Source: a virus. From it: DNA of 21,029 nucleotides. A program made the position numbers and the translations under genes. The DNA lies in UHGV virus genome UHGV-1794847; one strand, 5' to 3'. Shown piece after piece: positions 2,136 to 17,266 of this stretch. Numbering within the stretch: position 1 is the stretch's first letter; every line of letters starts with the position of its first letter. The notes under the pieces were generated by a model. It worked only from the letters and a program-made list of their open reading frames with translations, made no database searches and was not told the DNA's origin.

Positions 2136-3428
2136 CTACAACAATGACGGCACTCGTTGAGTTTCAAGTGGGTCACTGACATTGATGCCTGTGTATGCAA
2201 CAAGTCGTTGTATTGGGCCAAGCACGAGTTTTTCGAACATGAGTCGCTTATTCATTGGTGGCACATCTGGCATGTACTTAGGCGTTGGCATTTCACCTGG
2301 CGCAAAGCCAAATGCATCGCAATATTGACGAGAACCAATTGGGATATTTGACAAATCTGACTTTGCTCTATCGACGAAATAGTAGAACACTCTACCGCCT
2401 TCAATCAATGTATATCGTGTTTCCAATCCATGAGCTTTTACAAGTGCGTTATGGTATGCACAAGCCCTGTACTGAGGCAGTACGCCTTTTGCTAACTGCC
2501 ATTCGCCATCATAGCTTAGCACATAGTCATGATACTTGTTTGCATTGACATATGCACAAAGTTTCTCCAAGTCTTGCTCGGCTTCAAAGCGTTTCCATAA
2601 TTTCTGTATGAGCTTTGGATATGTCGCAGAAGTCAATTCACCTCTGAACATTTTCTTGAATGCATAATCAAGCATTTGCCTAACAAGCATTGATGAGCCT
2701 GTTTGAATAAGTTCGATGCCTTTGCCTTGAATGTGCTCAGTAGGGTCTTCGAATACTCGACCATCTACATATATTTGAGCCTTTAAGTACTTTTTCTTTT
2801 GGGCAAATAATGCAGTGTCAGAAATCGTTTCGAGGTCAAATAGCAAAATTGAATTGCCATGACGTTTTGCGAGGTCTGCTGCATATGCCCCATTGAATAA
2901 TTCTTCCATACGATATTTGAATATCGCAAGAATCAAGTCATACCAATTTTTGCCTATGTAGCCAATTGATTTGACAGTTGGCTCAAAGTGAATGTACAAA
3001 GAGTCTGTGTCAATATACAACACTTTGTCTTCATAGGGTTCTTGCTTTGGCGACACAGACAAATCAAAATTGCCCTTCAATTGTGGGTCATTACGCAGCT
3101 TTTCATGCAATTCATAATCACACCACCACTTATTGTTAAGATAGTCATTTGCTACTCGTTCACCAAAGTGAATGAAGTTGCGGCCTTCAGCAGTAATTGA
3201 TTCTGCAACAGCCATATTAAAGAAGTGATAGAAACGATTGCTTGTAGCGCCATATATTGAGTTTCGACAACATTTTGCTGAGACTTGTAGTCCTGCATGC
3301 TTTAGTGATTCTTGCATTGCAAAATCTCTCAATTCAAATAGACGTTCAGTAGACAACTGACTCAAATCACCAGTCAAATCTACTCCATCTATTTCAATTT
3401 TTGACATATCTATCTGAGCTTCTGCCAT
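2136..3428 (-). CDS. Family-B DNA polymerase, C-terminal part (motif B, motif C, thumb)
   Basis: Motif B KCCRNSIYG verified at 3249..3275 (K-x3-NS-x-YG) and motif C YIDTDS at 3000..3017 (YGDTDS-type). Stop TAG at 2136..2138. Start set to ATG at 3426..3428; the track's 3518 start is a TTG codon, and an alternative ATG exists at 3459..3461. Confidence 0.85.
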   Translation of the reverse strand: MAEAQIDMSKIEIDGVDLTGDLSQLSTERLFELRDFAMQESLKHAGLQVSAKCCRNSIYGATSNRFYHFFNMAVAESITAEGRNFIHFGERVANDYLNNKWWCDYELHEKLRNDPQLKGNFDLSVSPKQEPYEDKVLYIDTDSLYIHFEPTVKSIGYIGKNWYDLILAIFKYRMEELFNGAYAADLAKRHGNSILLFDLETISDTALFAQKKKYLKAQIYVDGRVFEDPTEHIQGKGIELIQTGSSMLVRQMLDYAFKKMFRGELTSATYPKLIQKLWKRFEAEQDLEKLCAYVNANKYHDYVLSYDGEWQLAKGVLPQYRACAYHNALVKAHGLETRYTLIEGGRVFYYFVDRAKSDLSNIPIGSRQYCDAFGFAPGEMPTPKYMPDVPPMNKRLMFEKLVLGPIQRLVAYTGINVSDPLETQRVPSLL

Positions 3429-3448
3429 AAGTTGTTTATTTTTGATTT

Positions 3449-3459
3449 TATTGTACAAC
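3449..3459 (-). promoter_or_regulatory. Conserved GTTGTACAATA element (sense strand), 20 nt upstream of the polymerase C-part ATG
   Basis: Plus-strand tattgtacaac at 3449..3459; identical 11-mer also at 8225..8235 and 10317..10327, each upstream of a minus-strand start. Contains a TACAAT -10-like hexamer and the palindrome TTGTACAA. Confidence 0.35.
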
Positions 3460-3496
3460 ATGCAAAACGAGTTTGCACTGTTTTGATACAACGACA

Positions 3497-4459
3497 CTAA
3501 ACTTTTACATGACCACAATCAAACACAGGATAAAATTGCCGTTGTAGCATAGTATTTGTGTCAAAATTGCCATCAATAAGATGTTCGTGTGTGCGCCAAT
3601 TATGCCAATGTTTTTGAATTGTCTGCAAGTTATCTGATTTTTGTGGATTCAATGCAAAGTCTGTTGATAGCACAGGTTCATTGTTCAAATGCGCTTGTAT
3701 TGCTGCAATAACTGCTTCAACAGACATCCACTCAAATGCAGTCACACAAATAAAACCTGCACGCAATGCATCTTGAGTTTTGTAAAAGTGATATGTTGGA
3801 TGAGTTGCTGCGCATTTTGATGCATTTTTGACAAGTGCATCAAAGCTTTTTGCGCTGTTATGCGACACTGTTGGATTGATTTCTACTACGACATTGTCAT
3901 ATCGCAAATCATACAACTTTAAGCCTATTCTGTAGTCATATTCAAAATTTATGCCAAGACGTTCAAATAGCAATGCATGCCAACGTTCATTAAGTTTTGA
4001 CTGTATTTGACCAGATGCTGCTCTGCATTTTGCATGCATGCAAAAATACGGCACATCATATCGCTCTTCACATGTTTGACGCAACTTAGCAATGTTTGCA
4101 GGCCCAAGCTTGCCAAAATGCTTAAGCTTAGTTGCATTTGCTTTGTCAGTATTGCTTGGACCTGCTTTGCCAAAATGTTCAAGCTTTGTCGCATTCGCTT
4201 TGTCAGTATTGCCTGGTCCAAGCTTGCCAAAATGTTTAAGCTTAGTCTGCTTGCATTGCTCTGTTACATATGATAACTGCATATTGTGTTCTACACCATA
4301 TTTTCGCAACATTGCAATTCGCCTGATGTATTTTCTACGAATTTTGCTGTGCGACGTCTTTCTTGGTGCGTATCTAACATATGGTGTATTTGCAATCAAC
4401 TCATCTCGCTCGTTTTCAAGTTTAGCAATACGAGCATCAATCTCTTCTTTTGTCATCAT
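3497..4459 (-). CDS. Repeat-containing putative DNA-binding / homing-endonuclease-like protein, class unassigned
   Basis: ATG at 4457..4459. Three tandem 19-aa repeats (TKLKHFGKLGPGNTDKANA) encoded by a 57-bp DNA repeat; basic N-terminus. Sits between the two polymerase halves, where freestanding endonucleases typically reside. No GIY-YIG or HNH motif recognised; the motif LYDLRYDNVVVEINPTVSH is only loosely nuclease-like. Confidence 0.55.
   Translation of the reverse strand: MMTKEEIDARIAKLENERDELIANTPYVRYAPRKTSHSKIRRKYIRRIAMLRKYGVEHNMQLSYVTEQCKQTKLKHFGKLGPGNTDKANATKLEHFGKAGPSNTDKANATKLKHFGKLGPANIAKLRQTCEERYDVPYFCMHAKCRAASGQIQSKLNERWHALLFERLGINFEYDYRIGLKLYDLRYDNVVVEINPTVSHNSAKSFDALVKNASKCAATHPTYHFYKTQDALRAGFICVTAFEWMSVEAVIAAIQAHLNNEPVLSTDFALNPQKSDNLQTIQKHWHNWRTHEHLIDGNFDTNTMLQRQFYPVFDCGHVKV
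4101..4260 (-). repeat. 57-bp in-frame tandem repeat, about 2.8 copies, inside CDS 3497..4459
   Basis: Units starting near 4108, 4165 and 4222 (gcttgccaaaatgcttaagcttagttgcatttgctttgtcagtattgc and variants); period 57 = 19 codons. Confidence 0.8.
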
Positions 4460-4467
4460 AGCAATTC

Positions 4468-4501
4468 AAAAAATGCAGCAGCAGATGTTCTGCTGCTGCA
4501 T
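4468..4501 (-). terminator. Intrinsic terminator between the SSB-like gene and the endonuclease-like gene
   Basis: Perfect 12-bp stem atgcagcagcag (4473..4484) / ctgctgctgcat (4490..4501), loop atgtt, preceded on plus by an A-run 4468..4472 (a T-run after the hairpin on the minus strand). It ends about 10 nt from the next ATG at 4459. Confidence 0.6.
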
Positions 4502-4543
4502 CGGCAGGTATCTTCACATGTGTTTGAGTTGATTACGATGTGA

Positions 4544-5371
4544 TTAGAATGGCAGGTCGCCATCGTCACCTGCAGCGTCAAATTCAGCTGCAATGTCATA
4601 TACCAACGTCATTGCGATTCGCAAATCGCGCTTCTTAGACTTCAGGCGCATGATATCATGACCAGAATTGTTTGTGATGACTGAACATTCAAACTCTTCA
4701 TTGCCATCAATAAATGACAGCATTGATTTGTGAATTGTGATTGGCGACAAATCAGATGGGTAATTTGCATCAATCACATATTCAAAGTTGTTGTTCTTGG
4801 CAATTAGCCCTCGTTCAGTCGTACGAATCTCAATGCCGGGCAATTCCTTGTCACCAGTATTCAATGAACCATACGATGACATGATGCCAAAGTGATTTGA
4901 CGTCAAATCGAGCTTTCTCAGATTTGTTGTGCTATCAAACAACATTGACATATCATTGTCAGACAGCTCAAAGTAGCCAAGTGATGGCATTGAACAAACC
5001 TGATTGATTTTGAGCTGATTGTTTGAGATTACAATGAGCTCTGCAATTGTATCTGTACCAATTTGTTTGACATAGATTTCAATCATTGCAGATGAGCCAA
5101 ATGCAGCAAGTACTCGATTGTTGAATTGCGTGCCATTGTAAATGAGCGCTTTGACTGTGACATCTTTGAGTGTAGACTCATAATGTTCGCAAATGTCAAG
5201 CACATTAAGTATCTGCGACTTTACAAAGCTACTATTGCCAGCATCAGTTCTGATTCGCTGGTCATTGAGTGAAAAGCTAAGCTTGCCATCGCATTTTAAT
5301 GATGATGCAAACAATGCTCGCAGCATATCAACGTTTGCATTGCGTAATGTAATTTTGTTCAGATTTTCCAT
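4544..5371 (-). CDS. Putative ssDNA-binding protein (SSB-like acidic C-terminal tail)
   Basis: ATG at 5369..5371. C-terminus ...AAEFDAAGDDGDLPF mirrors the acidic tail ending in Phe of bacterial SSB (DDDIPF) and T7 gp2.5; located in the replication module. Fold not verified. Confidence 0.5.
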   Translation of the reverse strand: MENLNKITLRNANVDMLRALFASSLKCDGKLSFSLNDQRIRTDAGNSSFVKSQILNVLDICEHYESTLKDVTVKALIYNGTQFNNRVLAAFGSSAMIEIYVKQIGTDTIAELIVISNNQLKINQVCSMPSLGYFELSDNDMSMLFDSTTNLRKLDLTSNHFGIMSSYGSLNTGDKELPGIEIRTTERGLIAKNNNFEYVIDANYPSDLSPITIHKSMLSFIDGNEEFECSVITNNSGHDIMRLKSKKRDLRIAMTLVYDIAAEFDAAGDDGDLPF

Positions 5372-5439
5372 CTTGTATCTATGTTGTTGATTTTCAATTT
5401 AATATATTGAACAACATTTGTTGACATTTTGCAACATTG

Positions 5440-5814
5440 TCATCGATTGTCGCCTGACCCATGTAGTACGCCTCGTAATTTTCGAGACTGCAGTTTCTGA
5501 ATGTTAAGCTGACAAATGTCAGTTAAGCTGTAGCCCAAATCATGTGCAAGAGTTGCAGCGTACCACATGACATCACTGAGCTCTTTTGCGATTTCCTTGC
5601 GAATGTCTTCATTGTCAAAATCGCCATTCTTGTCTCGAATGACTTTTTTGACTTTGTCTGCAACTTCGCCTGCTTCACCCGTTAAGCCAAGTGTTGGATA
5701 GATAATTGCAGCTGATTTAGGATACACTGCGCTATCAAGTGCAGCAATCTGATATTCATCAATAGTTGAAATCTGTGCATGGTCGATTACGCCATGTTCA
5801 TCTCGTTTAAGCAT
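5440..5814 (-). CDS. mazG: MazG-like nucleoside triphosphate pyrophosphohydrolase
   Basis: ATG at 5812..5814. Motifs LGLTGEAGEVADKVKK and ELSDVMWYAATLAHDLGYSL match the MazG EEXX(E/D) helix signature common in phages. Confidence 0.8.
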   Translation of the reverse strand: MLKRDEHGVIDHAQISTIDEYQIAALDSAVYPKSAAIIYPTLGLTGEAGEVADKVKKVIRDKNGDFDNEDIRKEIAKELSDVMWYAATLAHDLGYSLTDICQLNIQKLQSRKLRGVLHGSGDNR

Positions 5815-5815
5815 A

Positions 5816-6307
5816 TCATTTACGTTTTTGTTTGACTCTCAATCGTTTTTGCATAAATGCTCTTGTAGCTTCACCAAAAGCCATTTCATCTCGTTCACCG
5901 CCGCAAAGCTTTGCAAGCTTATTGAATGTGTCTTGGTCAATCATTGTGTATGTTGAGTTGTTGACCACATGCAATGCAAACTGAATCAGCGGTGTGCCTG
6001 GCTGCAAGCAGAATGGCTCTTTACCTGCATTGTACACTGCAAGATGAATCTCGCCATGATAGTCTGAATCTACAAACTCACTTGTTTTAATGATAAGATG
6101 ATTTCGTGAAATACCCGACTTGTTGTAGGCAATCAATGCATGACCAGCAGGCACAAGTGCTTTGATGCCAGATGGAATTGCAATGCCCTCGCCAGGTTGC
6201 AGCATTGTTTGCACAAAATCATTGGGTATGCAAAAGTCCCATGCGCCAGATTCTGCTGTTGACTTAAAAGGACTTTCTACATTTCTGCATTTTGCAAAGA
6301 ATAACAT
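5816..6307 (-). CDS. dut: dUTPase-like protein (dUTPase/dCTP deaminase superfamily)
   Basis: ATG at 6305..6307, stop TGA at 5816..5818, one nt before the MazG start. Motif-like segments SGAWDF, KSGISRNH, FVDSDYHGEI (compare G-x-ID-x-DYRGE), LIQF, and a C-terminal Gly-rich GGERDEMAFGEAT. Confidence 0.7.
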   Translation of the reverse strand: MLFFAKCRNVESPFKSTAESGAWDFCIPNDFVQTMLQPGEGIAIPSGIKALVPAGHALIAYNKSGISRNHLIIKTSEFVDSDYHGEIHLAVYNAGKEPFCLQPGTPLIQFALHVVNNSTYTMIDQDTFNKLAKLCGGERDEMAFGEATRAFMQKRLRVKQKRK

Positions 6308-6330
6308 ATTAAGTATGCGTTTGTATGTTG

Positions 6331-6675
6331 TTAGTACATTTCTCGTTTAACAAGAGCTTTGCGTTTTGAGCGTAGCCCAGCCCTATTACGCAATTCTACA
6401 GACCAATCACGAATCATTTGCCATGCAATCCCACCACGTTGAATACCACCGTGCTTGAACATTTCATTGCAAATGCCTTGAATAAACACTGCGTCAAACT
6501 TTGTCAGTGCATCGACAATTTGACCATGTGTATCTTCTGATTTGACATCATTGCAAAGCTTAAGCTCATCTACTGAAAGTTCACCAAGCAGCTCATAGTA
6601 ATATATGAGAGCTTTGCGTGCGGCAATTGCTTTTCTTGAATTGCCAGAATAAGACAAAGTTACATGTTTGCTCAT
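6331..6675 (-). CDS. Hypothetical protein (114 aa from ATG)
   Basis: ORF 6331..6681 in the track begins at TTG; first ATG at 6673..6675. 20-nt gap to the polymerase N-part stop. Confidence 0.55.
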   Translation of the reverse strand: MSKHVTLSYSGNSRKAIAARKALIYYYELLGELSVDELKLCNDVKSEDTHGQIVDALTKFDAVFIQGICNEMFKHGGIQRGGIAWQMIRDWSVELRNRAGLRSKRKALVKREMY

Positions 6676-6695
6676 ATTCAATTATTGTTATGGTG

Positions 6696-8201
6696 TTACA
6701 ATTTGATTGCACCTCTACGAGCAAGCTCTTCTTCAATCAATCTAACATGATTGTTAGCATACCAAAATTGCAATTTTTTGTGATAATTGCGAATGTCGCC
6801 AAGCTGTTCTTGAGTTTCTTTATACATTGAAGGCTCTCTATTGTCATACAGACAATTATTGACAGACACAAAGTAATTTGGGTCTGCTTTGTAATGCTCG
6901 ATTTCATCAGGATTTGTCAAACGTCTAATAAAGTTGTCTGGTGAAATATTCGCCGAGCGCATACTTGACGGATACAACGAGTTTGCATCAACACAGACAA
7001 CCATACGAGCCCAATGGTTAAATGGCTGCTTAACAAAGCCGCCCTCAAATGAATGTACAACATTCTCCGGACCGCCTTGAGCGCATACAACTTTACCGCC
7101 ATATTTGTTGTACAAATATGTCATCATGACGCCCTCAGATTGCTTAACTGGTCCTTGACAGTGATTCATGTCAATATTTGTCATATTTGACAATGACATT
7201 ACATTTGATATCAAGTCAGTTTTTGCAGCAATCATCGCATTGACCATCGTATCGACAGCATTATATGCAATGAACGTGCATGGATGATACAAATACAGCT
7301 CTTTAAGTGTGCAATCATAGGGCAGCTTACCTACGCCAAACATACGATGTGCAATATAGTCAAGTCGCAATGACTCTTTTTGCCACACTGAATAGTCGTA
7401 TGTGTCCATGAGTTGCATGTAGTCATCAATGTACTTGTGATATGGCATGCCATTGCCCCAGACAGTTCTGCCAACTGGAGATGCCAATGCTAAATCAATA
7501 TTGTGCATTGCGCATCGATTTTTGATATAGATGCTATCGAAGCCATTGATGTTCCAACCTGTCAATGCAGGAATGTTTTTGAAGAGCTTAGTCACCCAAA
7601 AATGCAACAATTCATGCTCATTTGCATGTTGAAAGATTTTGACAGTCGGACGCTCTTTCAAATATGCAGCAAAGCAATGCTGACCCATGTACTCTTGAAT
7701 GATGTTATTGACAAACTCAAATGCATCGTCCAGTGTTGGGTTTTGTTTGCCACAGCTTTTGCGCAAATCATCGTCATTCAACAAGTCAACAGTTGTCTGA
7801 ATGACACAATTACATTGCTCATCACATGTACTTATTGCATTAATGGGCATTTCAGCTTTGTCAGGCTTTGGAAAGCCATTGCCAATTTCAGTCTCAATAT
7901 CGTAAAAGTACAACTTTGGTCTACGATAAGCAAACAATTCAGCTTTGTCAGCTTCAGGCAATTCAAATAAGAATTGCAGTAAGTCAAATTGATTGAATCG
8001 CTTTGCTGTAACTCGAGTTACTGGCAATTTGCGCCAATCTTGAATATCTGCATATTGCGGCTCTACATGGTCTGATATTTGCCATACTGGAAATTGATAT
8101 GGCTGTTCACAGACAGGATATGTTTTAATATCAATGCCACCTTGCTCATTAACGTATGAAACTTCAATGCCATGTGACAAATATGCTACATCGACAATCA
8201 T
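6696..8201 (-). CDS. Family-B DNA polymerase, N-terminal part (3'-5' exonuclease domain plus motif A)
   Basis: Exo I FYDIETE (about 7893..7901), Exo II-like WNINGFD, Exo III-like YNAVD, and motif A DANSLYPS verified at 6966..6989. Ends with TAA at 6696..6698 about 100 aa after motif A, before any motif B. Start set to ATG 8199..8201; the track's 8237 start is TTG. Confidence 0.9.
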   Translation of the reverse strand: MIVDVAYLSHGIEVSYVNEQGGIDIKTYPVCEQPYQFPVWQISDHVEPQYADIQDWRKLPVTRVTAKRFNQFDLLQFLFELPEADKAELFAYRRPKLYFYDIETEIGNGFPKPDKAEMPINAISTCDEQCNCVIQTTVDLLNDDDLRKSCGKQNPTLDDAFEFVNNIIQEYMGQHCFAAYLKERPTVKIFQHANEHELLHFWVTKLFKNIPALTGWNINGFDSIYIKNRCAMHNIDLALASPVGRTVWGNGMPYHKYIDDYMQLMDTYDYSVWQKESLRLDYIAHRMFGVGKLPYDCTLKELYLYHPCTFIAYNAVDTMVNAMIAAKTDLISNVMSLSNMTNIDMNHCQGPVKQSEGVMMTYLYNKYGGKVVCAQGGPENVVHSFEGGFVKQPFNHWARMVVCVDANSLYPSSMRSANISPDNFIRRLTNPDEIEHYKADPNYFVSVNNCLYDNREPSMYKETQEQLGDIRNYHKKLQFWYANNHVRLIEEELARRGAIKL

Positions 8202-8212
8202 ATTATTATCTT

Positions 8213-8623
8213 TTAGAATAGAGATATTGTACAACAATTTGATTCAGGTTGCCATTCTACAATATGCGCATCAAAGTGTTTGTTAAGCCAATGTGCAAGT
8301 ATGTGTCTATGACAAAATGCAGATGGTCTGCACCAGCATAACAGTACAATGTCTCGTTCACCAGCAAGAAGCTTTATGCGATGCAGCATCAAACTTATCT
8401 GTGACAATGCAGCGTCAAGTTTTGCAGTGTATTGCTCTGCATATTGTGCATTGTCAAGCAAGCCTACTTTATGCAAACGAACAAGTGACATGTAATCAGG
8501 CATGACGTCAGTCCATGTAAAATCTGCTATGAAGCCCTTAGGTTTTGTTGCAGATACTTGAACAAGAAATGCGTTATCAGGCAGATGCCTGCATGCATAA
8601 TATGAAGTCAAGATTCTTGTCAT
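8213..8623 (-). CDS. DUF488-like protein
   Basis: ATG at 8621..8623, overlapping the upstream stop as ATGA. C-terminal RDIVLLCWCRPSAFCHRHILAHWL resembles the conserved LLC..E....CHR.l.a..L block of DUF488 (YeaO-like) proteins, recalled from memory. Confidence 0.5.
   Translation of the reverse strand: MTRILTSYYACRHLPDNAFLVQVSATKPKGFIADFTWTDVMPDYMSLVRLHKVGLLDNAQYAEQYTAKLDAALSQISLMLHRIKLLAGERDIVLLCWCRPSAFCHRHILAHWLNKHFDAHIVEWQPESNCCTISLF
8225..8235 (-). promoter_or_regulatory. Conserved GTTGTACAATA element, 23 nt upstream of the polymerase N-part ATG
   Basis: Plus tattgtacaac at 8225..8235; same 11-mer as at 3449..3459 and 10317..10327. Confidence 0.35.
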
Positions 8624-12129: not shown

Positions 12130-12252
12130 TATTGTAGAGGTTTTAGTGTTCTGTATATTATGTTCGAATATATGAGGACATATATTATATATAGATATAT
12201 TACAACACACAAATCATTTTTGCACACTTTTATAAACCAAAATTTCACAAAA

Positions 12253-12561
12253 ATGCAAACACAAGAAGTTTTAACGGATGTCATTGACATGTCACAATCA
12301 GCTCGCAATTATGCGCTTGGCGCTGTATGTGACGCAGAAGAGCATGAAGATGCTGTTGAAGCAGTTATCGAAGATTACATGCAAGGCGCAAGAGAAATGT
12401 ACGTCAAGTTGACTACATTTGTCAATGTCAATGATGCAGTGCCTGCAAATAACTACCCAGTCATTGCAAAGCTTGCAAATGATTCATATACAATTGCAAC
12501 ATTTGAAAATGACATGTGGTCAGTTGACCATATTGTTGCGTGGCGCAAGTTGCACATTTAA
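12253..12561 (+). CDS. Small acidic protein (102 aa); only plus-strand gene in the window
   Basis: ATG at 12253..12255 after an AT-rich divergent intergenic region; TAA at 12559..12561 followed by a terminator. About 17 D/E versus 6 K/R. The track's longer 12019 start would translate the AT-rich intergenic region and the antisense of the neighbouring gene. Confidence 0.55.
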   Translation: MQTQEVLTDVIDMSQSARNYALGAVCDAEEHEDAVEAVIEDYMQGAREMYVKLTTFVNVNDAVPANNYPVIAKLANDSYTIATFENDMWSVDHIVAWRKLHI

Positions 12562-12575
12562 GATTATAGCACAAC

Positions 12576-12607
12576 AAAAAAGTCCGAGCATTGCTCGGAC
12601 TTTTTTG
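12576..12607. terminator. Bidirectional intrinsic terminator between convergent genes
   Basis: Stem agtccgag (12581..12588) / ctcggact (12594..12601) with 5-nt loop, flanked by A-run 12576..12580 and T-run 12601..12606, so it reads as hairpin plus U-run on both strands. Confidence 0.75.
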
Positions 12608-12622
12608 TTGTGCACTGATTGT

Positions 12623-15600
12623 CTATCGAACAATCGATGTAATTGATGCTACTGGTATCGTACCAATGATTGATGTAGTTGAGCGGAAGTCTGCATAGAC
12701 TTTAATGTCAAATGTGAACTCCTTGCCACCAATGTAGCATATGAAATTCATTGTTTTTGTGTATGACAACTTGTTTTGTTGAGTATTGCTGTCAATGTCA
12801 GATGAACCAACTGCATCAGTCATACGAGCCTGGAACAACAATGGTATCAGCAATGCATTGTTTTCACCAGGCTTAACTACATAAGCTGCAGAATCAGTAC
12901 TATTCGAAACTTGCATTTGATTGACTGTTGTCGGATTCAACAGCAAGAATGCGCCACGACTATTTGCGCCGACTGCATAGACGTCGTTGTCTGTGAATGC
13001 GCATTTAGGCGCGTTTTCTGCAGTAAGTTCAAGTGGCAGAATCTGCTGATACTTTGACTTAATAACTGAATTGAACTTAGCAAGCTCTGCAAATGCAGCA
13101 GTCAAAGCAGCTTTTGTTTGTTCATTCTTGTTTGCTGAGTATGCAATCCATGCTGGATGCTGAACAGACATCAGATTATATGCGTCTGGTGATACTGTCG
13201 ACTTCAATGCAATCGCTTCATAATCATCGTCATTCTTATGAACAAATTTGCGATTTGCTGCTTGTGCAGAAGTGTCAATGTTTTGTGTTTCTACAGTAGA
13301 CGATGATGGTGTTTCTGCAGCAACATACAGCTTTTCTGTGCCTGCTACGTTTTTCAAACCAGCATACAATGTTTGACCCATGTATTGACGAGTGCCATAC
13401 GGTGCTAAGATGTCATTGCTGTCATATGCATCGCTGTTAAGCACTACAGGCACGTCATAGACATCTGCAAAATCTTGTAGTTTGTCTGTAATATGCTGTG
13501 ATAAGTCGCCATGATATCGTGGATACAATGAGATGTTTTCTGCACCAATATTGTAGAACTTCAGCCAATATTGTCGAGTAAGCACTTTGCCATAGTTGTC
13601 TGCTGAAGTAATGTCAAACTTATCTGCATAAGTGCCAGCAAACAAAACATTGCTCGAGCCATTCAGAATTTCTGTTTGATTGCCCTCGTCATCTACGATT
13701 GCAACTCGAAGCATTGAACCTTGATTCAGAATGATGTCTTTGAGCTGCGCAACTTCATTGCTAAGTGACAGCAGTTTTTCATATGTTGTCACTTTTGCAA
13801 GTTCTGATGTGAAGAAGCCTGATGCAATGTTTTGAGCATTGTGAGCATAGTAGATGTTGTTTTCTGAGAATGCATCTGCAATATGCTTGATAAGTCCTTT
13901 GTTCTCAAGCATATTTTCAAGAGCCACATTTTGCTTATCAATTGCAAGTTCATCTTTAAGTGTGACGAACATTGCAGAAGCTGCAAGACTTTCTGGGAAC
14001 TGAATGCTTACGATGTTTGACCACTCAGACTCATTGAGCACGTTTGGATAGCCTGCTTCACCAATTGCTTTGACACGGAACTGAACAATCTCATTAGCAG
14101 AAATTGGAATTTCAAGCTGATTGCATGAGATTGCATCAATGGATTCTGAATTGATTGGTTCCCATTGAATGCTACCATCGACAATGATTTTGCGACGAAG
14201 TGGCGTAAATACTTCATTCCATGTGCTAAATGCTGCTGTCGTAATTGTGCCTGCTGCGTTTTCGATGTCAAATGTGTCTGCCTTTGCTACTGTGCCATTC
14301 AATGACGCATATCTGTACTGCACCTTGAACTGCACAATGTTTTGTGCAGCAGTAAATCTACTGATTGCGGGGTCTTGTACTGGCAAGAAGCCTCGAACTC
14401 TAAACTTCGGATTATATAATGCGTCATATGCAGCGCCATTGATATTCAGCATCTCATCAATGATATTTGTGAGTGTTTGCAGTCGTTCTGCTCTTTGCTG
14501 AGTCAACGTAACATATTGCGTAGATGCTTTTTGACGTTCAACGTCATTCTTGAAATTATTTGTATTGAGCTTTGACATCACAGATGCGATATCAGAGTCA
14601 AGTACCGACATTTCTTGCTGAACTGCTCGTTTTTGATTGTACAATGACAAAATTCGAGATTTGTCAGTGTTGTCAATCAAATGTGTGTTAAGCTGAATAA
14701 CTTTGAATGATTCTGCAGACAATTGCAAACGATTTGGCTTAATTGCATATTGCGATGGCGCAAGCATATCAGTAGTCAATGCTGCAATATAAGCGCCAAT
14801 TGATGCGTCGCCATGTGACAACATATACGAGTTTGCATTGACAAGCTCATTTGTTGCAGTACGAATTGTAAGTGTTGCAGTGTCAATCAAAACTGCTGGG
14901 CTGTACTGAGCTACTGTGTTATATGCATCATGCACAGGCGACAAGAACAACACGAATTTTTCAGAATGTCGAAGTGGTACTTCAACGACTTTTCGAACAA
15001 TGGGCTCTACAAAGACGAGGTCAGTGACTTCTACATTCAATGCATTCAAGCCTGCAGTACGCTGCAGTATACATGTTTGCGACAGTTTGTCAATCGAAAC
15101 AATTTGCAGTAATACTGAACCAGTCGGGTCTGATAATGTGTCACCGACTTTCAATGTCAGTGAACCGGCAACCTTTGCGTCAATTGCATCATATACAATG
15201 CTGTCAAGTTTGACAGCAATTGTGCCATTGTTCGCATTTTGCTTCTTGAGAATTTTGAAGCTGCCACTTGATGCTGCTCGTCGTGGTCGCAAATTAACTG
15301 TGAAGTCTTCAAGAGTATAGTCATCATCAGTATGCCAGCCATGCGCATCAATTTCAGCAAGCAATGCAGCATGGCTCATTTCAATGTCTGTTTGTGCCAC
15401 AATTTGCTGCAATGCAGCAAACATGGCATCTGAGCATATGTACTTTGTAACTTGACATTGTTTAAGATATGATGATGCTTGACCAGTCACATCAATTTGC
15501 ACATGCATACCAAGCGCTGTTGTGCGTTCAAACATATCATTGCCAAGTGCGACAACATTGTTATCTTCTGCTATCGTGCCCTGCAAAGTCTTCAATGTCT

Positions 15601-15928
15601 CAGGCTGATTCAGCAAGCTCATATGCACCATTGTACGCATATTGTTGTTTGCATCTACAAGTTGTGCATACAACTGCTCACCATTATTTAAGCCTGTCAA
15701 GACTTTCATATTTTGCTCAATGACAGCCATGCGACGTTGAATTGACGCAAAGCTTGGCACAGTAATGCTTGTTGTGCTTCTATCATCATTTGTCAATGTT
15801 ATTGTGACTGTATCTTCTGATGATGACACTGCAGCTTGCAACACATCAAGATATTGCAGACTGTTATTGTACAGTTGCTTGATGTCTGCCAGCAATTGTT
15901 GCATTGCATTTGTTGAAACTTCTGACAT
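12623..15928 (-). CDS. Large hypothetical protein (about 1101 aa), probable virion structural protein
   Basis: The track start 15976 is TTG; first ATG at 15926..15928 (MSEVSTNAMQQLL). Beta-rich S/T/N/V composition with a central predicted coiled-coil segment (SRILSLYNQKRAVQQEMSVLDSDIASVMSKL...); no ATPase or enzymatic motif seen. Confidence 0.8.
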   Translation of the reverse strand: MSEVSTNAMQQLLADIKQLYNNSLQYLDVLQAAVSSSEDTVTITLTNDDRSTTSITVPSFASIQRRMAVIEQNMKVLTGLNNGEQLYAQLVDANNNMRTMVHMSLLNQPETLKTLQGTIAEDNNVVALGNDMFERTTALGMHVQIDVTGQASSYLKQCQVTKYICSDAMFAALQQIVAQTDIEMSHAALLAEIDAHGWHTDDDYTLEDFTVNLRPRRAASSGSFKILKKQNANNGTIAVKLDSIVYDAIDAKVAGSLTLKVGDTLSDPTGSVLLQIVSIDKLSQTCILQRTAGLNALNVEVTDLVFVEPIVRKVVEVPLRHSEKFVLFLSPVHDAYNTVAQYSPAVLIDTATLTIRTATNELVNANSYMLSHGDASIGAYIAALTTDMLAPSQYAIKPNRLQLSAESFKVIQLNTHLIDNTDKSRILSLYNQKRAVQQEMSVLDSDIASVMSKLNTNNFKNDVERQKASTQYVTLTQQRAERLQTLTNIIDEMLNINGAAYDALYNPKFRVRGFLPVQDPAISRFTAAQNIVQFKVQYRYASLNGTVAKADTFDIENAAGTITTAAFSTWNEVFTPLRRKIIVDGSIQWEPINSESIDAISCNQLEIPISANEIVQFRVKAIGEAGYPNVLNESEWSNIVSIQFPESLAASAMFVTLKDELAIDKQNVALENMLENKGLIKHIADAFSENNIYYAHNAQNIASGFFTSELAKVTTYEKLLSLSNEVAQLKDIILNQGSMLRVAIVDDEGNQTEILNGSSNVLFAGTYADKFDITSADNYGKVLTRQYWLKFYNIGAENISLYPRYHGDLSQHITDKLQDFADVYDVPVVLNSDAYDSNDILAPYGTRQYMGQTLYAGLKNVAGTEKLYVAAETPSSSTVETQNIDTSAQAANRKFVHKNDDDYEAIALKSTVSPDAYNLMSVQHPAWIAYSANKNEQTKAALTAAFAELAKFNSVIKSKYQQILPLELTAENAPKCAFTDNDVYAVGANSRGAFLLLNPTTVNQMQVSNSTDSAAYVVKPGENNALLIPLLFQARMTDAVGSSDIDSNTQQNKLSYTKTMNFICYIGGKEFTFDIKVYADFRSTTSIIGTIPVASITSIVR

Positions 15929-15953
15929 ATGCTTAAATGTAATTTGTTCTTGT

Positions 15954-16005
15954 TTTTGATGCAAGATGCAAAACAATTAAAATTGTTTTGATGCAAAATG
16001 CAAAA
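15954..16005 (-). repeat. Two 20-bp direct repeats TTTTGATGCAA(G/A)ATGCAAAA, 32 bp apart, upstream of the large gene
   Basis: Copies at 15954..15973 and 15986..16005 with one mismatch; sense-strand reading TTTTGCAT(C/T)TTGCATCAAAA, 26 to 77 nt upstream of ATG 15928. Confidence 0.6.
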
Positions 16006-16030
16006 ATCTGTTAGATTTTTGATATGTACA

Positions 16031-16067
16031 AACAAAAAGACTGCTGCAAATTATTGCAGCAGTCTTT
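16031..16067 (-). terminator. Intrinsic terminator downstream of gene 16086..16979
   Basis: Perfect 12-bp stem agactgctgcaa (16038..16049) / ttgcagcagtct (16054..16065), 4-nt loop, plus-strand A-run 16034..16037 giving a T-run after the hairpin on the minus strand. Confidence 0.7.
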
Positions 16068-16085
16068 AATAATTGCTTGTTTATG

Positions 16086-16979
16086 CTATGTCAATGCAAT
16101 GAAGACATCACCAGACTGTTCAGCTTCAAGCTCTTTTTCGACTTGTTGTTGCATTGTTTGACCTTTTGATGCAAGTCTATCAAAGTTAATGCGAACATTG
16201 CCAGGCAACTTGAAGTCATATGTGCCAATGATATCTGCAAGTTCTTGCATGCATTGACCTGTGCAGTATCTCAAGAAACGTCTGTCTTCATACAATGACT
16301 GCAGTGGCACTCTTACCCAACACATCAACACCAAATCAGACCCTTCATTATCACCAAGAATGTTCAGCTTATGACTAAATCTGTTGAAGTTATATGTGAT
16401 TGTTCGTTGTAGAATGCTTTCATATGTGCCAATTTCATACATTGTCACCCACAAGTCATCTGCAATTGATGCATTTTGAGAACCTGCAGGTCCAGCGTAG
16501 TTAAATGACACACCATTTGCCTCACTGTAGAAATTGATTGAATTGCTAAGCAGTCGTTCAAGATAGAAATTTGCACGCCGCATTGACAGTTTATGCTGCG
16601 ATTCAAGTAGCTGAACATCTGATACAGCCCAGATTTGTGGCGGCAATTTGACAATTTTGTTTGCGCCATCAGTCATGTCAATATCGCGAACAACAAACCA
16701 GCGCTCTTCAAGAGCAGACTCAGAATGTTCAAAAAACCATTCTGCACAAGTCTCAATGATTTGTGGCATACGAGTCTTCGGAATTGCAAATGGCAATGCA
16801 CAGCCTCGTGTGACTTCTTGTACAAGTCGCTCAATAAATCGCAAGTCTACGCTGTAGTCATATCGAGAATTGATATTTTCGACTTCAGGCTTATTGCACT
16901 CATTTGTTGTTGCGCCTTCGACTTTCCAAGAAGTTGCGCCGTCATTGATTGGTGGTGCTGGTTTACGTTGAACTTTCAT
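16086..16979 (-). CDS. Hypothetical protein (297 aa)
   Basis: ATG at 16977..16979 (MKVQRKPAPP); stop at 16086 followed by a terminator. Confidence 0.75.
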   Translation of the reverse strand: MKVQRKPAPPINDGATSWKVEGATTNECNKPEVENINSRYDYSVDLRFIERLVQEVTRGCALPFAIPKTRMPQIIETCAEWFFEHSESALEERWFVVRDIDMTDGANKIVKLPPQIWAVSDVQLLESQHKLSMRRANFYLERLLSNSINFYSEANGVSFNYAGPAGSQNASIADDLWVTMYEIGTYESILQRTITYNFNRFSHKLNILGDNEGSDLVLMCWVRVPLQSLYEDRRFLRYCTGQCMQELADIIGTYDFKLPGNVRINFDRLASKGQTMQQQVEKELEAEQSGDVFIALT

Positions 16980-17003
16980 GCTTGATAACGTTGAACTTTC
17001 ATG
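16965..17003 (-). repeat. 16-bp direct repeat acgttgaactttcatg duplicating the start region of gene 16086..16979
   Basis: Copies at 16965..16980 and 16988..17003; the upstream copy creates a second ATG (17000..17002) opening an 8-codon ORF MKVQRYQA whose TGA (16976..16978) overlaps the main ATG. Confidence 0.7.
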
Positions 17004-17188
17004 TGTCTTGTATATGGTCTACGGTGTGTGAAACACTCTACGGTATGATGTTGAAATTGACTGCAAGCAACAATGATGTGACATCTTCGCCCAATAGAAA
17101 TGAACCTGTAGCAAAACCAACGGCATCAAGTTGATTTGTAAACGTGCTCAGCGGCAATGTCAGTATGATGTAGCCTAACTTAACAGAG

Positions 17189-17198
17189 CCCCCCCCCC
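17189..17198. repeat. Homopolymeric C10 tract (G10 on minus strand) in the 287-bp intergenic region
   Basis: cccccccccc at 17189..17198 within otherwise AT-rich non-coding sequence 16980..17266. Confidence 0.8.
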
Positions 17199-17266
17199 GT
17201 GTTTTGCGAGCGATAGTGGTCTTGAGTTACATGTGACATATATGAAATGTTTGTTTGAATATGTAT

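What the first reader, a model, noticed from the sequence alone, without database searches (positions are those of the whole stretch)
15929..16030. Paired TTGCAT direct repeats in the leader of the 1101-aa gene
Two 20-bp direct repeats (sense TTTTGCAT(C/T)TTGCATCAAAA) lie 32 bp apart within about 80 nt upstream of the large gene's ATG, directly after the upstream terminator. Read as promoter elements, TTGCAT + 17 bp + TACATT would place a transcription start at or very near the ATG, giving a leaderless mRNA. Alternatively they are tandem sites for an activator.
Basis: partly seen in the sequence, partly recalled or inferred. Interest (0 to 1): 0.45.

Follow-up and report, generated by a model that had tools for sequence, protein, structure and literature searches.

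The report
Copy-number-variable box–hairpin repeat cassette
The two repeats are real and belong to a small repeated DNA cassette, specific to one lineage of gut phages, that comes and goes (0 to 5 copies) in front of a few genes; it is probably an optional regulatory add-on rather than the gene's basic promoter.

Summary
Two exact copies of TTTTGCAT(C/T)TTGCATCAAAA lie on the minus (sense) strand at 15986-16005 and 15954-15973. They sit between the terminator of a T4 gp13-like neck gene and the ATG of the 1101-aa gene.

New points:
1. In 16 near-identical contigs (flanks 94-97% identical) this leader carries 0 boxes (10 contigs), 1 (1), 2 (4) or 3 (1). The boxes are therefore dispensable for the gene.
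2. The same invariant 20-mer forms arrays of 2-5 copies, with a 28-34 nt period, at two other intergenic loci of related 175-kb contigs. It always points the same way as the downstream gene. One of these arrays borders a variable segment.
3. Only the Y position of the box varies. The spacers between boxes differ but always keep a 7-10 bp inverted repeat.
4. Every array starts directly after GTA(C/G)ATAT. This is part of a promoter-like motif found after terminators across the clade, and it is kept in 0-box alleles and in a 51%-identity relative.

Best reading (confidence about 0.35): an expandable, recombination-prone cis-regulatory cassette of binding sites, lying between a promoter-like motif and the start codon. 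No function is shown.

The parts
16086..16979 (-). Upstream gene: T4 gp13-like neck protein (297 aa)
   Evidence: Pfam PF26809 Phage_T4_gp13 on the identical product. PHROG 211 head-tail adaptor.
16036..16067 (-). Intrinsic terminator hairpin AAAGACTGCTGCAA-TAAT-TTGCAGCAGTCTTT followed by a T-rich tail
   Evidence: (I2). The stem is conserved in all 16 related contigs; the loop is flipped TAAT/ATTA among them.
16022..16035 (-). Promoter-like motif TTGTTTGTACATAT; every array starts right after its ATAT
   Evidence: Exact TGTAYATAT in sense orientation occurs only at three intergenic sites of the window. The pattern TTG-N2-4-GTA-N-N1-2-AT gives 9 hits in 6.7 kb of sense intergenic DNA against 10 in about 49 kb of coding DNA. 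It is kept in 0-box alleles and as GTACAATAT in the 51%-identity relative L055. Promoter function is inferred, not shown.
16001..16021 (-). Palindrome H1: CAAAAATCT-AAC-AGATTTTTG (9-bp arms); its 3' arm is the first 5 nt of the distal box
   Evidence: 4 extra complementary pairs in the variable part; 134 of 20000 shuffles reach this.
15986..16005 (-). Distal 20-bp box TTTTGCATTTTGCATCAAAA (two contiguous TTGCATY heptads flanked by TTTTG/CAAAA)
15969..15990 (-). Palindrome H2: CAAAACAATT-TT-AATTGTTTTG (10-bp arms) joining the two boxes
   Evidence: (I9).
15954..15973 (-).
15929..15953 (-). A-rich start-proximal leader ACAAGAACAAATTACATTTAAGCAT with TACATTTA (15941-15934); no Shine-Dalgarno sequence
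   Evidence: Read. This 25-nt segment is present only in box-bearing alleles; 0-box alleles have TCAAACAYCACATTTTAMGCAT instead.
12623..15928 (-). 1101-aa gene of unknown function (phrog_29329), conserved next to the neck gene in PAU/PTm/MA9V-type large phages
   Evidence: No Pfam match and no PDB sequence match.

Best explanation
The two repeats are the local instance of a lineage-specific, expandable 'box-hairpin' cassette. One unit is an invariant 20-bp box (TTTTG-CATYTTGCAT-CAAAA, i.e. two contiguous TTGCATY heptads) plus a spacer. The spacer sequence is free, but together with the box ends it always forms a 7-10 bp inverted repeat.

The cassette sits between a clade-conserved promoter-like motif (TTGTTTGTACATAT, directly after the neck-gene terminator) and the start codon of the 1101-aa gene. 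I infer that the boxes are reiterated recognition sites for a phage-encoded sequence-specific nucleic-acid-binding factor. On this reading the array acts as an optional operator or modulator laid over the initial transcribed region, tuning or time-gating expression of the few genes that carry it.

Copy number changes by unequal crossing-over between boxes. The whole cassette is gained, lost and moved among promoter-proximal sites by recombination.

Shown here: anatomy, recurrence, copy-number polymorphism, dispensability, box invariance, conserved complementarity, and position relative to the conserved motif.

Inferred: that the upstream motif is the promoter, that a protein binds the box, and the direction of the effect (my guess is repression or gating).
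For: - The 20-mer is non-random in the window.
- Identical boxes form arrays at two further intergenic loci in related 175-kb contigs. Locus A lies between a 634-aa gene that I read as an NAD-dependent DNA ligase (from its sequence, not searched) and a Cys-rich 122-aa gene, with 2-3 copies. Locus B lies next to tail-fibre-like genes, with 2-5 copies. Both are co-oriented with the downstream gene, and the last box ends 22-35 nt before the next ATG where there is one.
- In about 60 kb of family DNA, boxes have 0-1 mismatch or nothing better than 4 mismatches, so there is no degenerate tail.
- In front of the big gene, 16 contigs with 94-97% identical flanks carry 0, 1, 2 or 3 boxes (10, 1, 4 and 1 contigs). 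Hairpin modules are shuffled (H2-H1-H2 in L086 against H1-H2 here), and only the Y position of the box varies.
- Eight distinct spacers keep 31 complementary pairs in their variable parts, against 3.8 expected and a maximum of 15 in 20000 shuffles. None of these is a G-T pair, which fits DNA-level symmetry somewhat better than an RNA fold.
- All arrays begin right after GTA(C/G)ATAT. That motif is enriched about 6.7-fold in sense intergenic DNA of the clade and is retained at this locus in a 51%-identity relative.
- The box is not a host repeat: GTDB genomes give 27 scattered single hits, and unrelated metagenome contigs give single hits only.
Against: - No binding protein was identified. The small ORFs available have no DNA-binding Pfam domain, and only about a third of the genome could be read.
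- Ten of 16 strains do without the cassette, so any function is accessory, and the cassette could be neutral.
- Box identity across loci could reflect recent spread plus concerted evolution rather than selection. The element was found only in one narrow lineage.
- The array period varies from 28 to 34 nt, which argues against helically phased cooperative binding.
- A sequence-only DNA-binding model does not need the spacer complementarity.
- There are no transcription data, so the true start site is unknown.
Confidence: 0.35

Rival explanations
1. Transcribed RNA element. The array is part of the 5' leader, and the hairpins plus the constant single-stranded CAUYUUGCAU linkers act in the RNA. 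Possible roles are a nut/put-like antitermination signal, a binding platform for a translational repressor, or 5' stabilising hairpins.
For: - The architecture is a conserved linear element plus a stem whose sequence changes while pairing is kept.
- The array lies directly downstream of the promoter-like motif and is always in sense orientation.
- There are only 2-3 loci per genome.
- In L028 the array is followed only by about 60 nt and a terminator, as a small RNA would be.
Against: - The fold is weak: RNA z-score -1.2 for the leader and -1.25 with the first coding nucleotides.
- Stems are A-U only, and there are no G-U pairs among the variable pairs.
- If GTACATAT is a -10-like element, transcription would start inside the left arm of the first palindrome. 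Yet first palindromes are as perfect as internal ones.
- There is no Rfam match.
Confidence: 0.2
2. First reader's model. The proximal TTGCAT is the -35/-33 element of the real promoter, paired with TACATT(TA). This gives a leaderless or near-leaderless mRNA, and the upstream boxes are extra promoter copies or activator sites.
For: - TTGCAT-N17-TACATT-N7-ATG is present.
- TTG-N20-TAcaTTTA is close to the Bacteroidota TTTG-N19-21-TAnnTTTG pattern (my knowledge of the consensus).
- 0-box alleles keep TTTG-N19-CAcaTTTT at the same place.
- Locus A has TTGCAT-N16-TACAAAT.
- L055 has TACTAT 7 nt before its ATG.
Against: - The match is only 7/12 to sigma-70 and was not listed by the scan.
- Locus B arrays have no -10/-7-like element at the expected distance.
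- Exact TAnnTTTG shows no intergenic preference in these regions.
- The box is absent from most alleles of the same gene.
- No other gene of the window shows a start-proximal -10-like element.
Confidence: 0.15
3. No dedicated function. The element is a selfish or neutral minisatellite that spreads among A-rich promoter-proximal sites. It matters only as a recombination hotspot, in the way PeSLs drive modular shuffling.
For: - Presence/absence and copy-number polymorphism occur among strains with identical gp13 protein.
- The locus B array borders segments that differ between L004, L005 and L028.
- The element is restricted to one narrow lineage.
- The terminator loop flip shows that palindrome-templated events are frequent here. 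Such events could keep the spacers palindromic without selection.
Against: - About 30 box copies at three loci, in contigs from many samples, differ only at the Y position plus one mismatch. Meanwhile spacers, loops and flanks diverge.
- Orientation and position relative to GTA(C/G)ATAT and to the downstream gene are constant.
Confidence: 0.2
4. Replication-origin-type element. A promoter is followed by an easily unwound, repeat- and hairpin-rich segment, like T4 oriF/oriG (promoter plus unwinding element) or oriE iterons.
For: - The array is AT-rich (GC 0.21-0.24) and ranks among the five least stable 70-bp duplex stretches of the window.
- It lies just downstream of a promoter-like motif.
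- There are a few dispersed copies per genome, some among structural genes, as in T4 (my knowledge).
Against: - Other intergenic regions are equally or more unstable.
- An origin that is absent from most strains at this locus is unlikely to be essential.
- No initiator gene is adjacent.
- The GC-skew profile across the window shows no clear turning point at the array.
Confidence: 0.1

Closest known systems
PeSL (promoter-early stem-loop) cassettes of T4-type phages (Arbiol et al. 2010, PMC2839356; Comeau et al. 2014, PMC4122927)
   Same: Both are short repeated intergenic cassettes that combine a promoter-region element with a stem-loop. Both sit immediately upstream of genes and lie at the borders of insertions, deletions or replacements between close relatives. 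Both are thought to move by recombination between copies.
   Different: PeSLs carry a consensus sigma-70 promoter and a strong, often G/C-run terminator stem. They number about 50 per genome and are not tandemly reiterated. Here there is no consensus promoter in the box and the stems are weak A-T stems. There are only 2-3 loci per 175 kb, with tandem arrays of 1-5 units.
Heptad-repeat operators of ribbon-helix-helix repressors (omega of pSM19035; MetJ met boxes). From my own knowledge, not tested.
   Same: Two or more contiguous 7-8 bp direct repeats form the minimal site. Sites are reiterated near promoters, and the number of repeats sets the strength of regulation.
   Different: No RHH or other DNA-binding gene was found in the DNA available. 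The pairs of heptads are separated by palindromic spacers, which those operators lack.
Lambda nut (boxA + boxB) and HK022 put sites. From my own knowledge.
   Same: Each is a conserved linear box next to a hairpin whose stem can change sequence while keeping pairing. There are a few copies per genome, placed just downstream of promoters and acting in cis.
   Different: Those sites are single units rather than variable tandem arrays, and they are essential for the phage programme. There is no Rfam match here, the predicted folding is weak, and no transcript data exist.
T4 replication origins oriF/oriG (promoter + unwinding element) and oriE iterons. From my own knowledge.
   Same: A promoter is followed by an AT-rich segment that unwinds easily. 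Copies are dispersed, some within structural gene blocks, and they are poorly conserved between relatives.
   Different: There is no evidence of initiation here. Duplex instability is no greater than in other intergenic regions.

Membership tests
   TTGCAT-N17-TACATT matches 3/6 + 4/6 = 7/12. The scan (threshold 9/12) lists no sense-strand site in 15500-16500.
Bacteroidota sigma-A promoter (TTTG-N19-21-TAnnTTTG; consensus from my knowledge) | -33 TTTG and -7 TAnnTTTG at the correct spacing upstream of the start | tested here: inconclusive
   cTTG-N20-TAcaTTTA matches 5 of 6 specified -7 positions, and 0-box alleles have TTTG-N19-CAcaTTTT. However, exact TAnnTTTG is not enriched in intergenic DNA here, and locus B arrays lack it.
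PeSL cassettes | The repeated motif contains a consensus host early promoter | tested here: not met
   no consensus promoter within the box or unit.
PeSL cassettes | Stable stem-loop with terminator activity inside the motif | tested here: inconclusive
   Hairpins of 7-10 A-T-rich base pairs are present. The overall fold z-score is only -1.2 (RNA) and -2.0 (DNA). The G+C-rich terminator is a separate element upstream.
PeSL cassettes | Dozens of copies per genome, concentrated in hyperplastic regions | tested here: not met
   Exact boxes occur at only two loci in each of the two 175-kb IMG/VR contigs, plus the polymorphic locus studied here.
PeSL cassettes | Located at borders of indels or replacements between close relatives | tested here: met
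   The locus B array borders a segment that differs in L004, L005 and L028. Locus C is itself an indel among 16 contigs.
Tandem-repeat (heptad/iteron) operator with cognate DNA-binding protein | Contiguous short direct repeats reiterated near a promoter | tested here: met
   TTGCATY x2 per box, with 1-5 boxes per array, adjacent to the promoter-like motif.
Tandem-repeat (heptad/iteron) operator with cognate DNA-binding protein | A cognate sequence-specific binding protein encoded by the element or genome | tested here: inconclusive
   There is no DNA-binding Pfam domain in 10 small ORFs of the window and L003. Most of the about 175-kb genome could not be examined.
nut/put-like RNA antitermination sites | Conserved linear box plus a hairpin with covarying stem | tested here: met
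   (31 complementary pairs in variable positions against 3.8 expected).
nut/put-like RNA antitermination sites | Element is transcribed and acts on downstream terminators | not testable with these tools
   No transcript data are available. Rfam shows no related family.
Promoter + DNA-unwinding-element origin (T4 oriF/oriG type) | Exceptionally low duplex stability immediately downstream of a promoter | tested here: inconclusive
   The array region ranks 5th among 70-bp stretches for instability, but four ordinary intergenic regions rank higher.

The most novel reading that the evidence does not exclude
The box-hairpin unit is a structure-dependent cis element, recognised as a DNA hairpin or cruciform or as an RNA stem plus linear box. 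It would belong to a previously undescribed regulatory system of T4-like gut phages of Bacteroidota, for example a nut/put-type antitermination signal or an R-loop or hairpin-dependent initiation site. On this reading the element is itself mobile: it hops between promoter-proximal sites and rewires which genes are under that control.
Probability: 0.12. Interest if true: 0.65.

Novelty: new variant of a known kind. Interest (0 to 1): 0.36.

Why it matters
Gene regulation in phages of Bacteroidota, including the abundant large gut phages, is almost unmapped. This work gives a defined 20-bp box. It also gives a natural allelic series (0, 1, 2 and 3 boxes in front of the same gene, in otherwise near-identical genomes). 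Finally, it gives a candidate clade-wide promoter motif. Together these make a ready-made experiment for finding a phage regulator and for measuring how repeat number tunes expression. The cassette also shows, outside the enterobacterial T4 group, that small regulatory cassettes mark the places where these genomes gain and lose DNA. If the cassette proves neutral, the finding is only a well-documented minisatellite.

Tried and rejected
- **Single TTGCAT hexamers as signals:** rejected. The hexamer is common genome-wide (84 copies against 71 expected), and the 13-mer with 2 mismatches is at chance level.
- **Known RNA family:** none found.
- **Strong RNA or DNA fold:** z-scores are only -1.2 to -2.0.
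- **Host-derived repeat or host operator:** rejected. GTDB genomes give 27 scattered single hits. The 39 unrelated metagenome contigs give single hits with unrelated context.
- **Mobile element with target-site duplication:** no duplication is seen. 0-box alleles are not simple deletion products, because a 9-nt segment replaces the cassette plus 18 nt.
- **Exact Bacteroidota -7 motif as a general promoter in these regions:** no intergenic enrichment.
- **Unusually unstable duplex as an origin mark:** no more unstable than other intergenic DNA.
- **Cognate DNA-binding protein among small ORFs:** none recognisable.
- **Function of the 1101-aa protein:** no Pfam or PDB sequence match; only phrog_29329 of unknown function.
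- **Nucleotide-level relatives among deposited phage genomes:** none.
- **Exact look-up of the 1101-aa protein:** not on record.
- **Published promoter data for the PAU/PTm/MA9V clade:** the literature search found nothing relevant.

Full report
**1. Observation**

All genes of the window lie on the minus strand. On that strand the segment reads as follows:
- stop codon of a 297-aa gene (16086);
- a 14-bp terminator hairpin (16067-16036);
- TTGTTTGTACATAT (16035-16022);
- CAAAAATCT-AAC-AGATTTTTG;
- CATTTTGCAT;
- CAAAACAATT-TT-AATTGTTTTG;
- CATCTTGCAT;
- CAAAAACAAGAACAAATTACATTTAAGCAT;
- ATG (15928) of an 1101-codon ORF.

The two 20-mers TTTTGCAT(T/C)TTGCATCAAAA are exact, at 16005-15986 and 15973-15954, 32 nt apart. 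They are far beyond chance: expected 0.06, and 0 of 100 shuffles reach 2 matches. The hexamer TTGCAT on its own is common in this genome and means nothing. The finding's facts are correct.

**2. Context**

The upstream gene is a T4 gp13-like neck protein (PF26809). The large protein belongs to phrog_29329, of unknown function. Its homologues lie in large phages of Chryseobacterium, Tenacibaculum, Flavobacterium, Sphingomonas (PAU) and Prevotella (Lak).

No gene in the window has a Shine-Dalgarno sequence. Related contigs come from assemblies whose names point to human gut cohorts (this is my inference from the sample names). A Bacteroidota host is therefore likely, and E. coli-type -35/-10 reasoning is of doubtful relevance (my knowledge).

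**3. The boxes are polymorphic at this locus**

The two closest IMG/VR contigs (98-99% protein identity) lack the whole repeat segment. A metagenome contig has one box. An ENA contig is identical to the window.

A look-up of one gp13 protein variant (297 aa) returned ten more contigs that all encode exactly that protein. Over all 16 contigs, the distance from terminator to ATG takes these values:

| Distance (nt) | Boxes | Contigs |
|---|---|---|
| 68 | 0 | 10 |
| 108 | 1 | 1 |
| 139 | 2 | 4 |
| 172 | 3 | 1 |

The flanks are 94-97% identical. In the 3-box allele the two hairpin modules are ordered H2-H1-H2, against H1-H2 in the window. The C/T position of each box varies independently.

Box-bearing and box-free alleles are two distinct haplotypes. 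In box-free alleles, TCAAACAYC replaces the array plus CAAAAACAAGAACAAATT, so the empty allele is not a simple unequal-crossover product.

The cassette is therefore dispensable for the large gene and evolutionarily very dynamic.

**4. The box recurs elsewhere in the lineage**

Scanning IMG/VR for the 20-mer found only the same two 175-kb contigs, each with two further array loci.

- **Locus A** lies between a 634-aa gene that I read as an NAD-dependent DNA ligase (from its sequence, not searched) and a Cys-rich 122-aa gene. It has 3 copies in L003, 2 in L006 and 2 in L041, with a 33-nt period.
- **Locus B** lies in a divergent region next to tail-fibre-like genes. It has 5 copies in L004, 2 in L005 and at least 3 in L028, with periods of 34 and 28 nt. 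Downstream of this array the three contigs differ: an extra 416 bp with a 118-codon ORF, a different 240 bp, or a direct junction to a terminator.

Arrays always read in the sense of the downstream gene. Where an ATG follows, the last box ends 22-35 nt before it.

In about 60 kb of family DNA, boxes have 0-1 mismatch, or else nothing better than 4 mismatches. All other hits in metagenomes and in GTDB genomes are isolated and unrelated. A two-unit pattern found nothing beyond the family.

Relatives with 80% and 51% gp13 identity have no box at locus C.

**5. Anatomy of the unit**

The spacers between boxes differ between loci and strains. Examples are CAAC-ATCTTA-GTTG, CAAT-TTTAT-ATTG, CAATT-TT-AATTG, ATCT-AAC-AGAT and CT-CAAA-AG.

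In 8 of 9 distinct versions, the spacers extend the fixed CAAAA...TTTTG into a perfect 7-10 bp inverted repeat. The variable positions contribute 31 complementary pairs, against 3.8 expected and a maximum of 15 in 20000 shuffles. So complementarity itself is maintained.

All pairs are Watson-Crick. The stems are A-T only and thermodynamically modest, with z-scores of -1.2 as RNA and -2.0 as DNA. Rfam has nothing similar.

The terminator loop is flipped (TAAT/ATTA) among strains. This shows that palindrome-templated events occur here, so mutation bias could help keep the spacers symmetric.

**6. Where the promoter probably is**

Every array begins right after GTA(C/G)ATAT. Exact TGTAYATAT in sense orientation occurs in the window only at three intergenic sites in front of structural genes.

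In the 51%-identity relative L055, several intergenic regions carry a terminator hairpin followed by TTTTGTTGTA(C/T/A).AT. The large gene there is preceded by GATGTACAATAT. The window has further examples after other terminators.

The pattern TTG-N2-4-GTA-N-N1-2-AT is about 6.7-fold enriched in sense intergenic DNA: 9 hits in 6.7 kb against 10 in about 49 kb.

This motif is kept in 0-box alleles. The simplest reading is that it is the promoter and that the cassette lies between it and the ATG. This is inference only.

It has TTGCAT-N17-TACATT-N7-ATG, or in Bacteroidota terms TTG-N20-TAcaTTTA. It has an equivalent in 0-box alleles (TTTG-N19-CAcaTTTT). It also has an echo in L055 (TACTAT-N7-ATG) and at locus A (TTGCAT-N16-TACAAAT). 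However, it fails at locus B, scores only 7/12 against sigma-70, and has no counterpart at other genes.

**7. Mechanism**

I commit, at about 0.35, to an accessory cis-regulatory cassette. In this model the invariant box, made of two contiguous heptads, is a reiterated recognition site for a phage factor. The array sits over the initial transcribed region. Unequal crossing-over and recombination change its dose and its location.

The rivals and my confidence in each are:
- a transcribed RNA element (0.2);
- a functionless minisatellite that acts as a recombination hotspot (0.2);
- an origin-type element (0.1).

Duplex instability and the search for a binding protein were uninformative.

**8. 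Comparison and novelty**

The nearest described system is the PeSL cassette of T4-type phages. The resemblance lies in position and evolutionary behaviour. Three defining features of PeSLs were tested and not met, or only inconclusively: a consensus promoter, a strong terminator stem, and dozens of copies per genome.

Resemblances to RHH heptad operators, to lambda nut and HK022 put, and to T4 origins rest on my memory. They are leads only.

I class the element as a new variant of a known kind (phage intergenic regulatory or recombination cassettes). Its interest is moderate. Its main value is the natural 0-3 box allelic series and the candidate clade-wide promoter motif.

Noticed in passing
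window 17189-17198 (C10 on + strand; G10 in sense), inside the 'intergenic' gap 16980-17266: A homopolymer G tract lies about 40 nt into a small ORF (sense ATGTCACATGTAACTCAAGACC...). The window has 10 G, the otherwise identical contig L050 has 11, and other strains have 7, 8 or 9. With 9 G the ORF is 66 aa; with 10 or 11 it is frameshifted. The sequence after the tract differs between strains. This could be a phase-variable gene start, or homopolymer assembly noise.
   Followed up: partly
L004 616-625 and 924-932; L005 266-272, 1349-1355, 2477-2483: Several genes next to tail-fibre-like genes begin with a short conserved N-terminus (MKT.Q.WFERQQ..AGG or M..K/RNWGG) that contains a G7-G10 tract. 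Tract length decides whether the N-terminus is in frame with the gene body. This resembles the hypermutable poly-G receptor-binding genes of Campylobacter phages (my memory). One such pair flanks the locus B array.
   Followed up: partly
window 16956-17003: A 23-bp tandem duplication includes the ATG of the gp13-like gene (ATGAAAGTTCAACGTTATCAAGC | ATGAAAGTTCAACGTAAACCAGC). It creates an 8-codon upstream mini-ORF that overlaps the real start. It is present in the window and in L001 but not in L057.
   Followed up: partly
window 16050-16053 (terminator loop): The 4-nt loop of the neck-gene terminator is TAAT in some strains and its reverse complement ATTA in others, independently of box number. 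This is a flip of the hairpin loop.
   Followed up: no
window 16980-17266 and the equivalent region of L086-L095: The space between the 203-aa gene and the gp13-like gene is hyperplastic. Other strains carry one or two extra ORFs there (106-173 aa), while the window has only 287 nt.
   Followed up: no
window 2136-8237: The family B DNA polymerase appears split. The exonuclease part is at 6696-8237 and the polymerase part at 2136-3518. Between them lie dUTPase, MazG, a 275-aa gene and a 320-aa DUF7487 gene. The DUF7487 gene contains a 57-nt x2.5 in-frame repeat at 4104-4247.
   Followed up: no
L055 14547-14790 (51%-identity relative, downstream of its large gene): These are different intergenic direct-repeat arrays: a 42-nt unit x2.6 containing GCTTGCATTTCAAC, and a 17-nt unit x3.5 (CTTGCTCTAACAATTTG). 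L055 also carries a recurring terminator + TTTTGTTGTA.TAT cassette in at least three intergenic regions, and a 13-nt x2.2 duplication right after that motif at 1034-1062.
   Followed up: partly
window 12560-12620 and 12170-12215 (minus strand): After the large gene's terminator (AAAAAAGTCCGAGCAATGCTCGGACTTTTTT) comes TTGTTGTGCTATAAT, a perfect extended -10-like TGnTATAAT. A further GTTGTAATATAT lies before the next small gene. Between them, an ORF on the opposite strand was called in the related contig L050.
   Followed up: no
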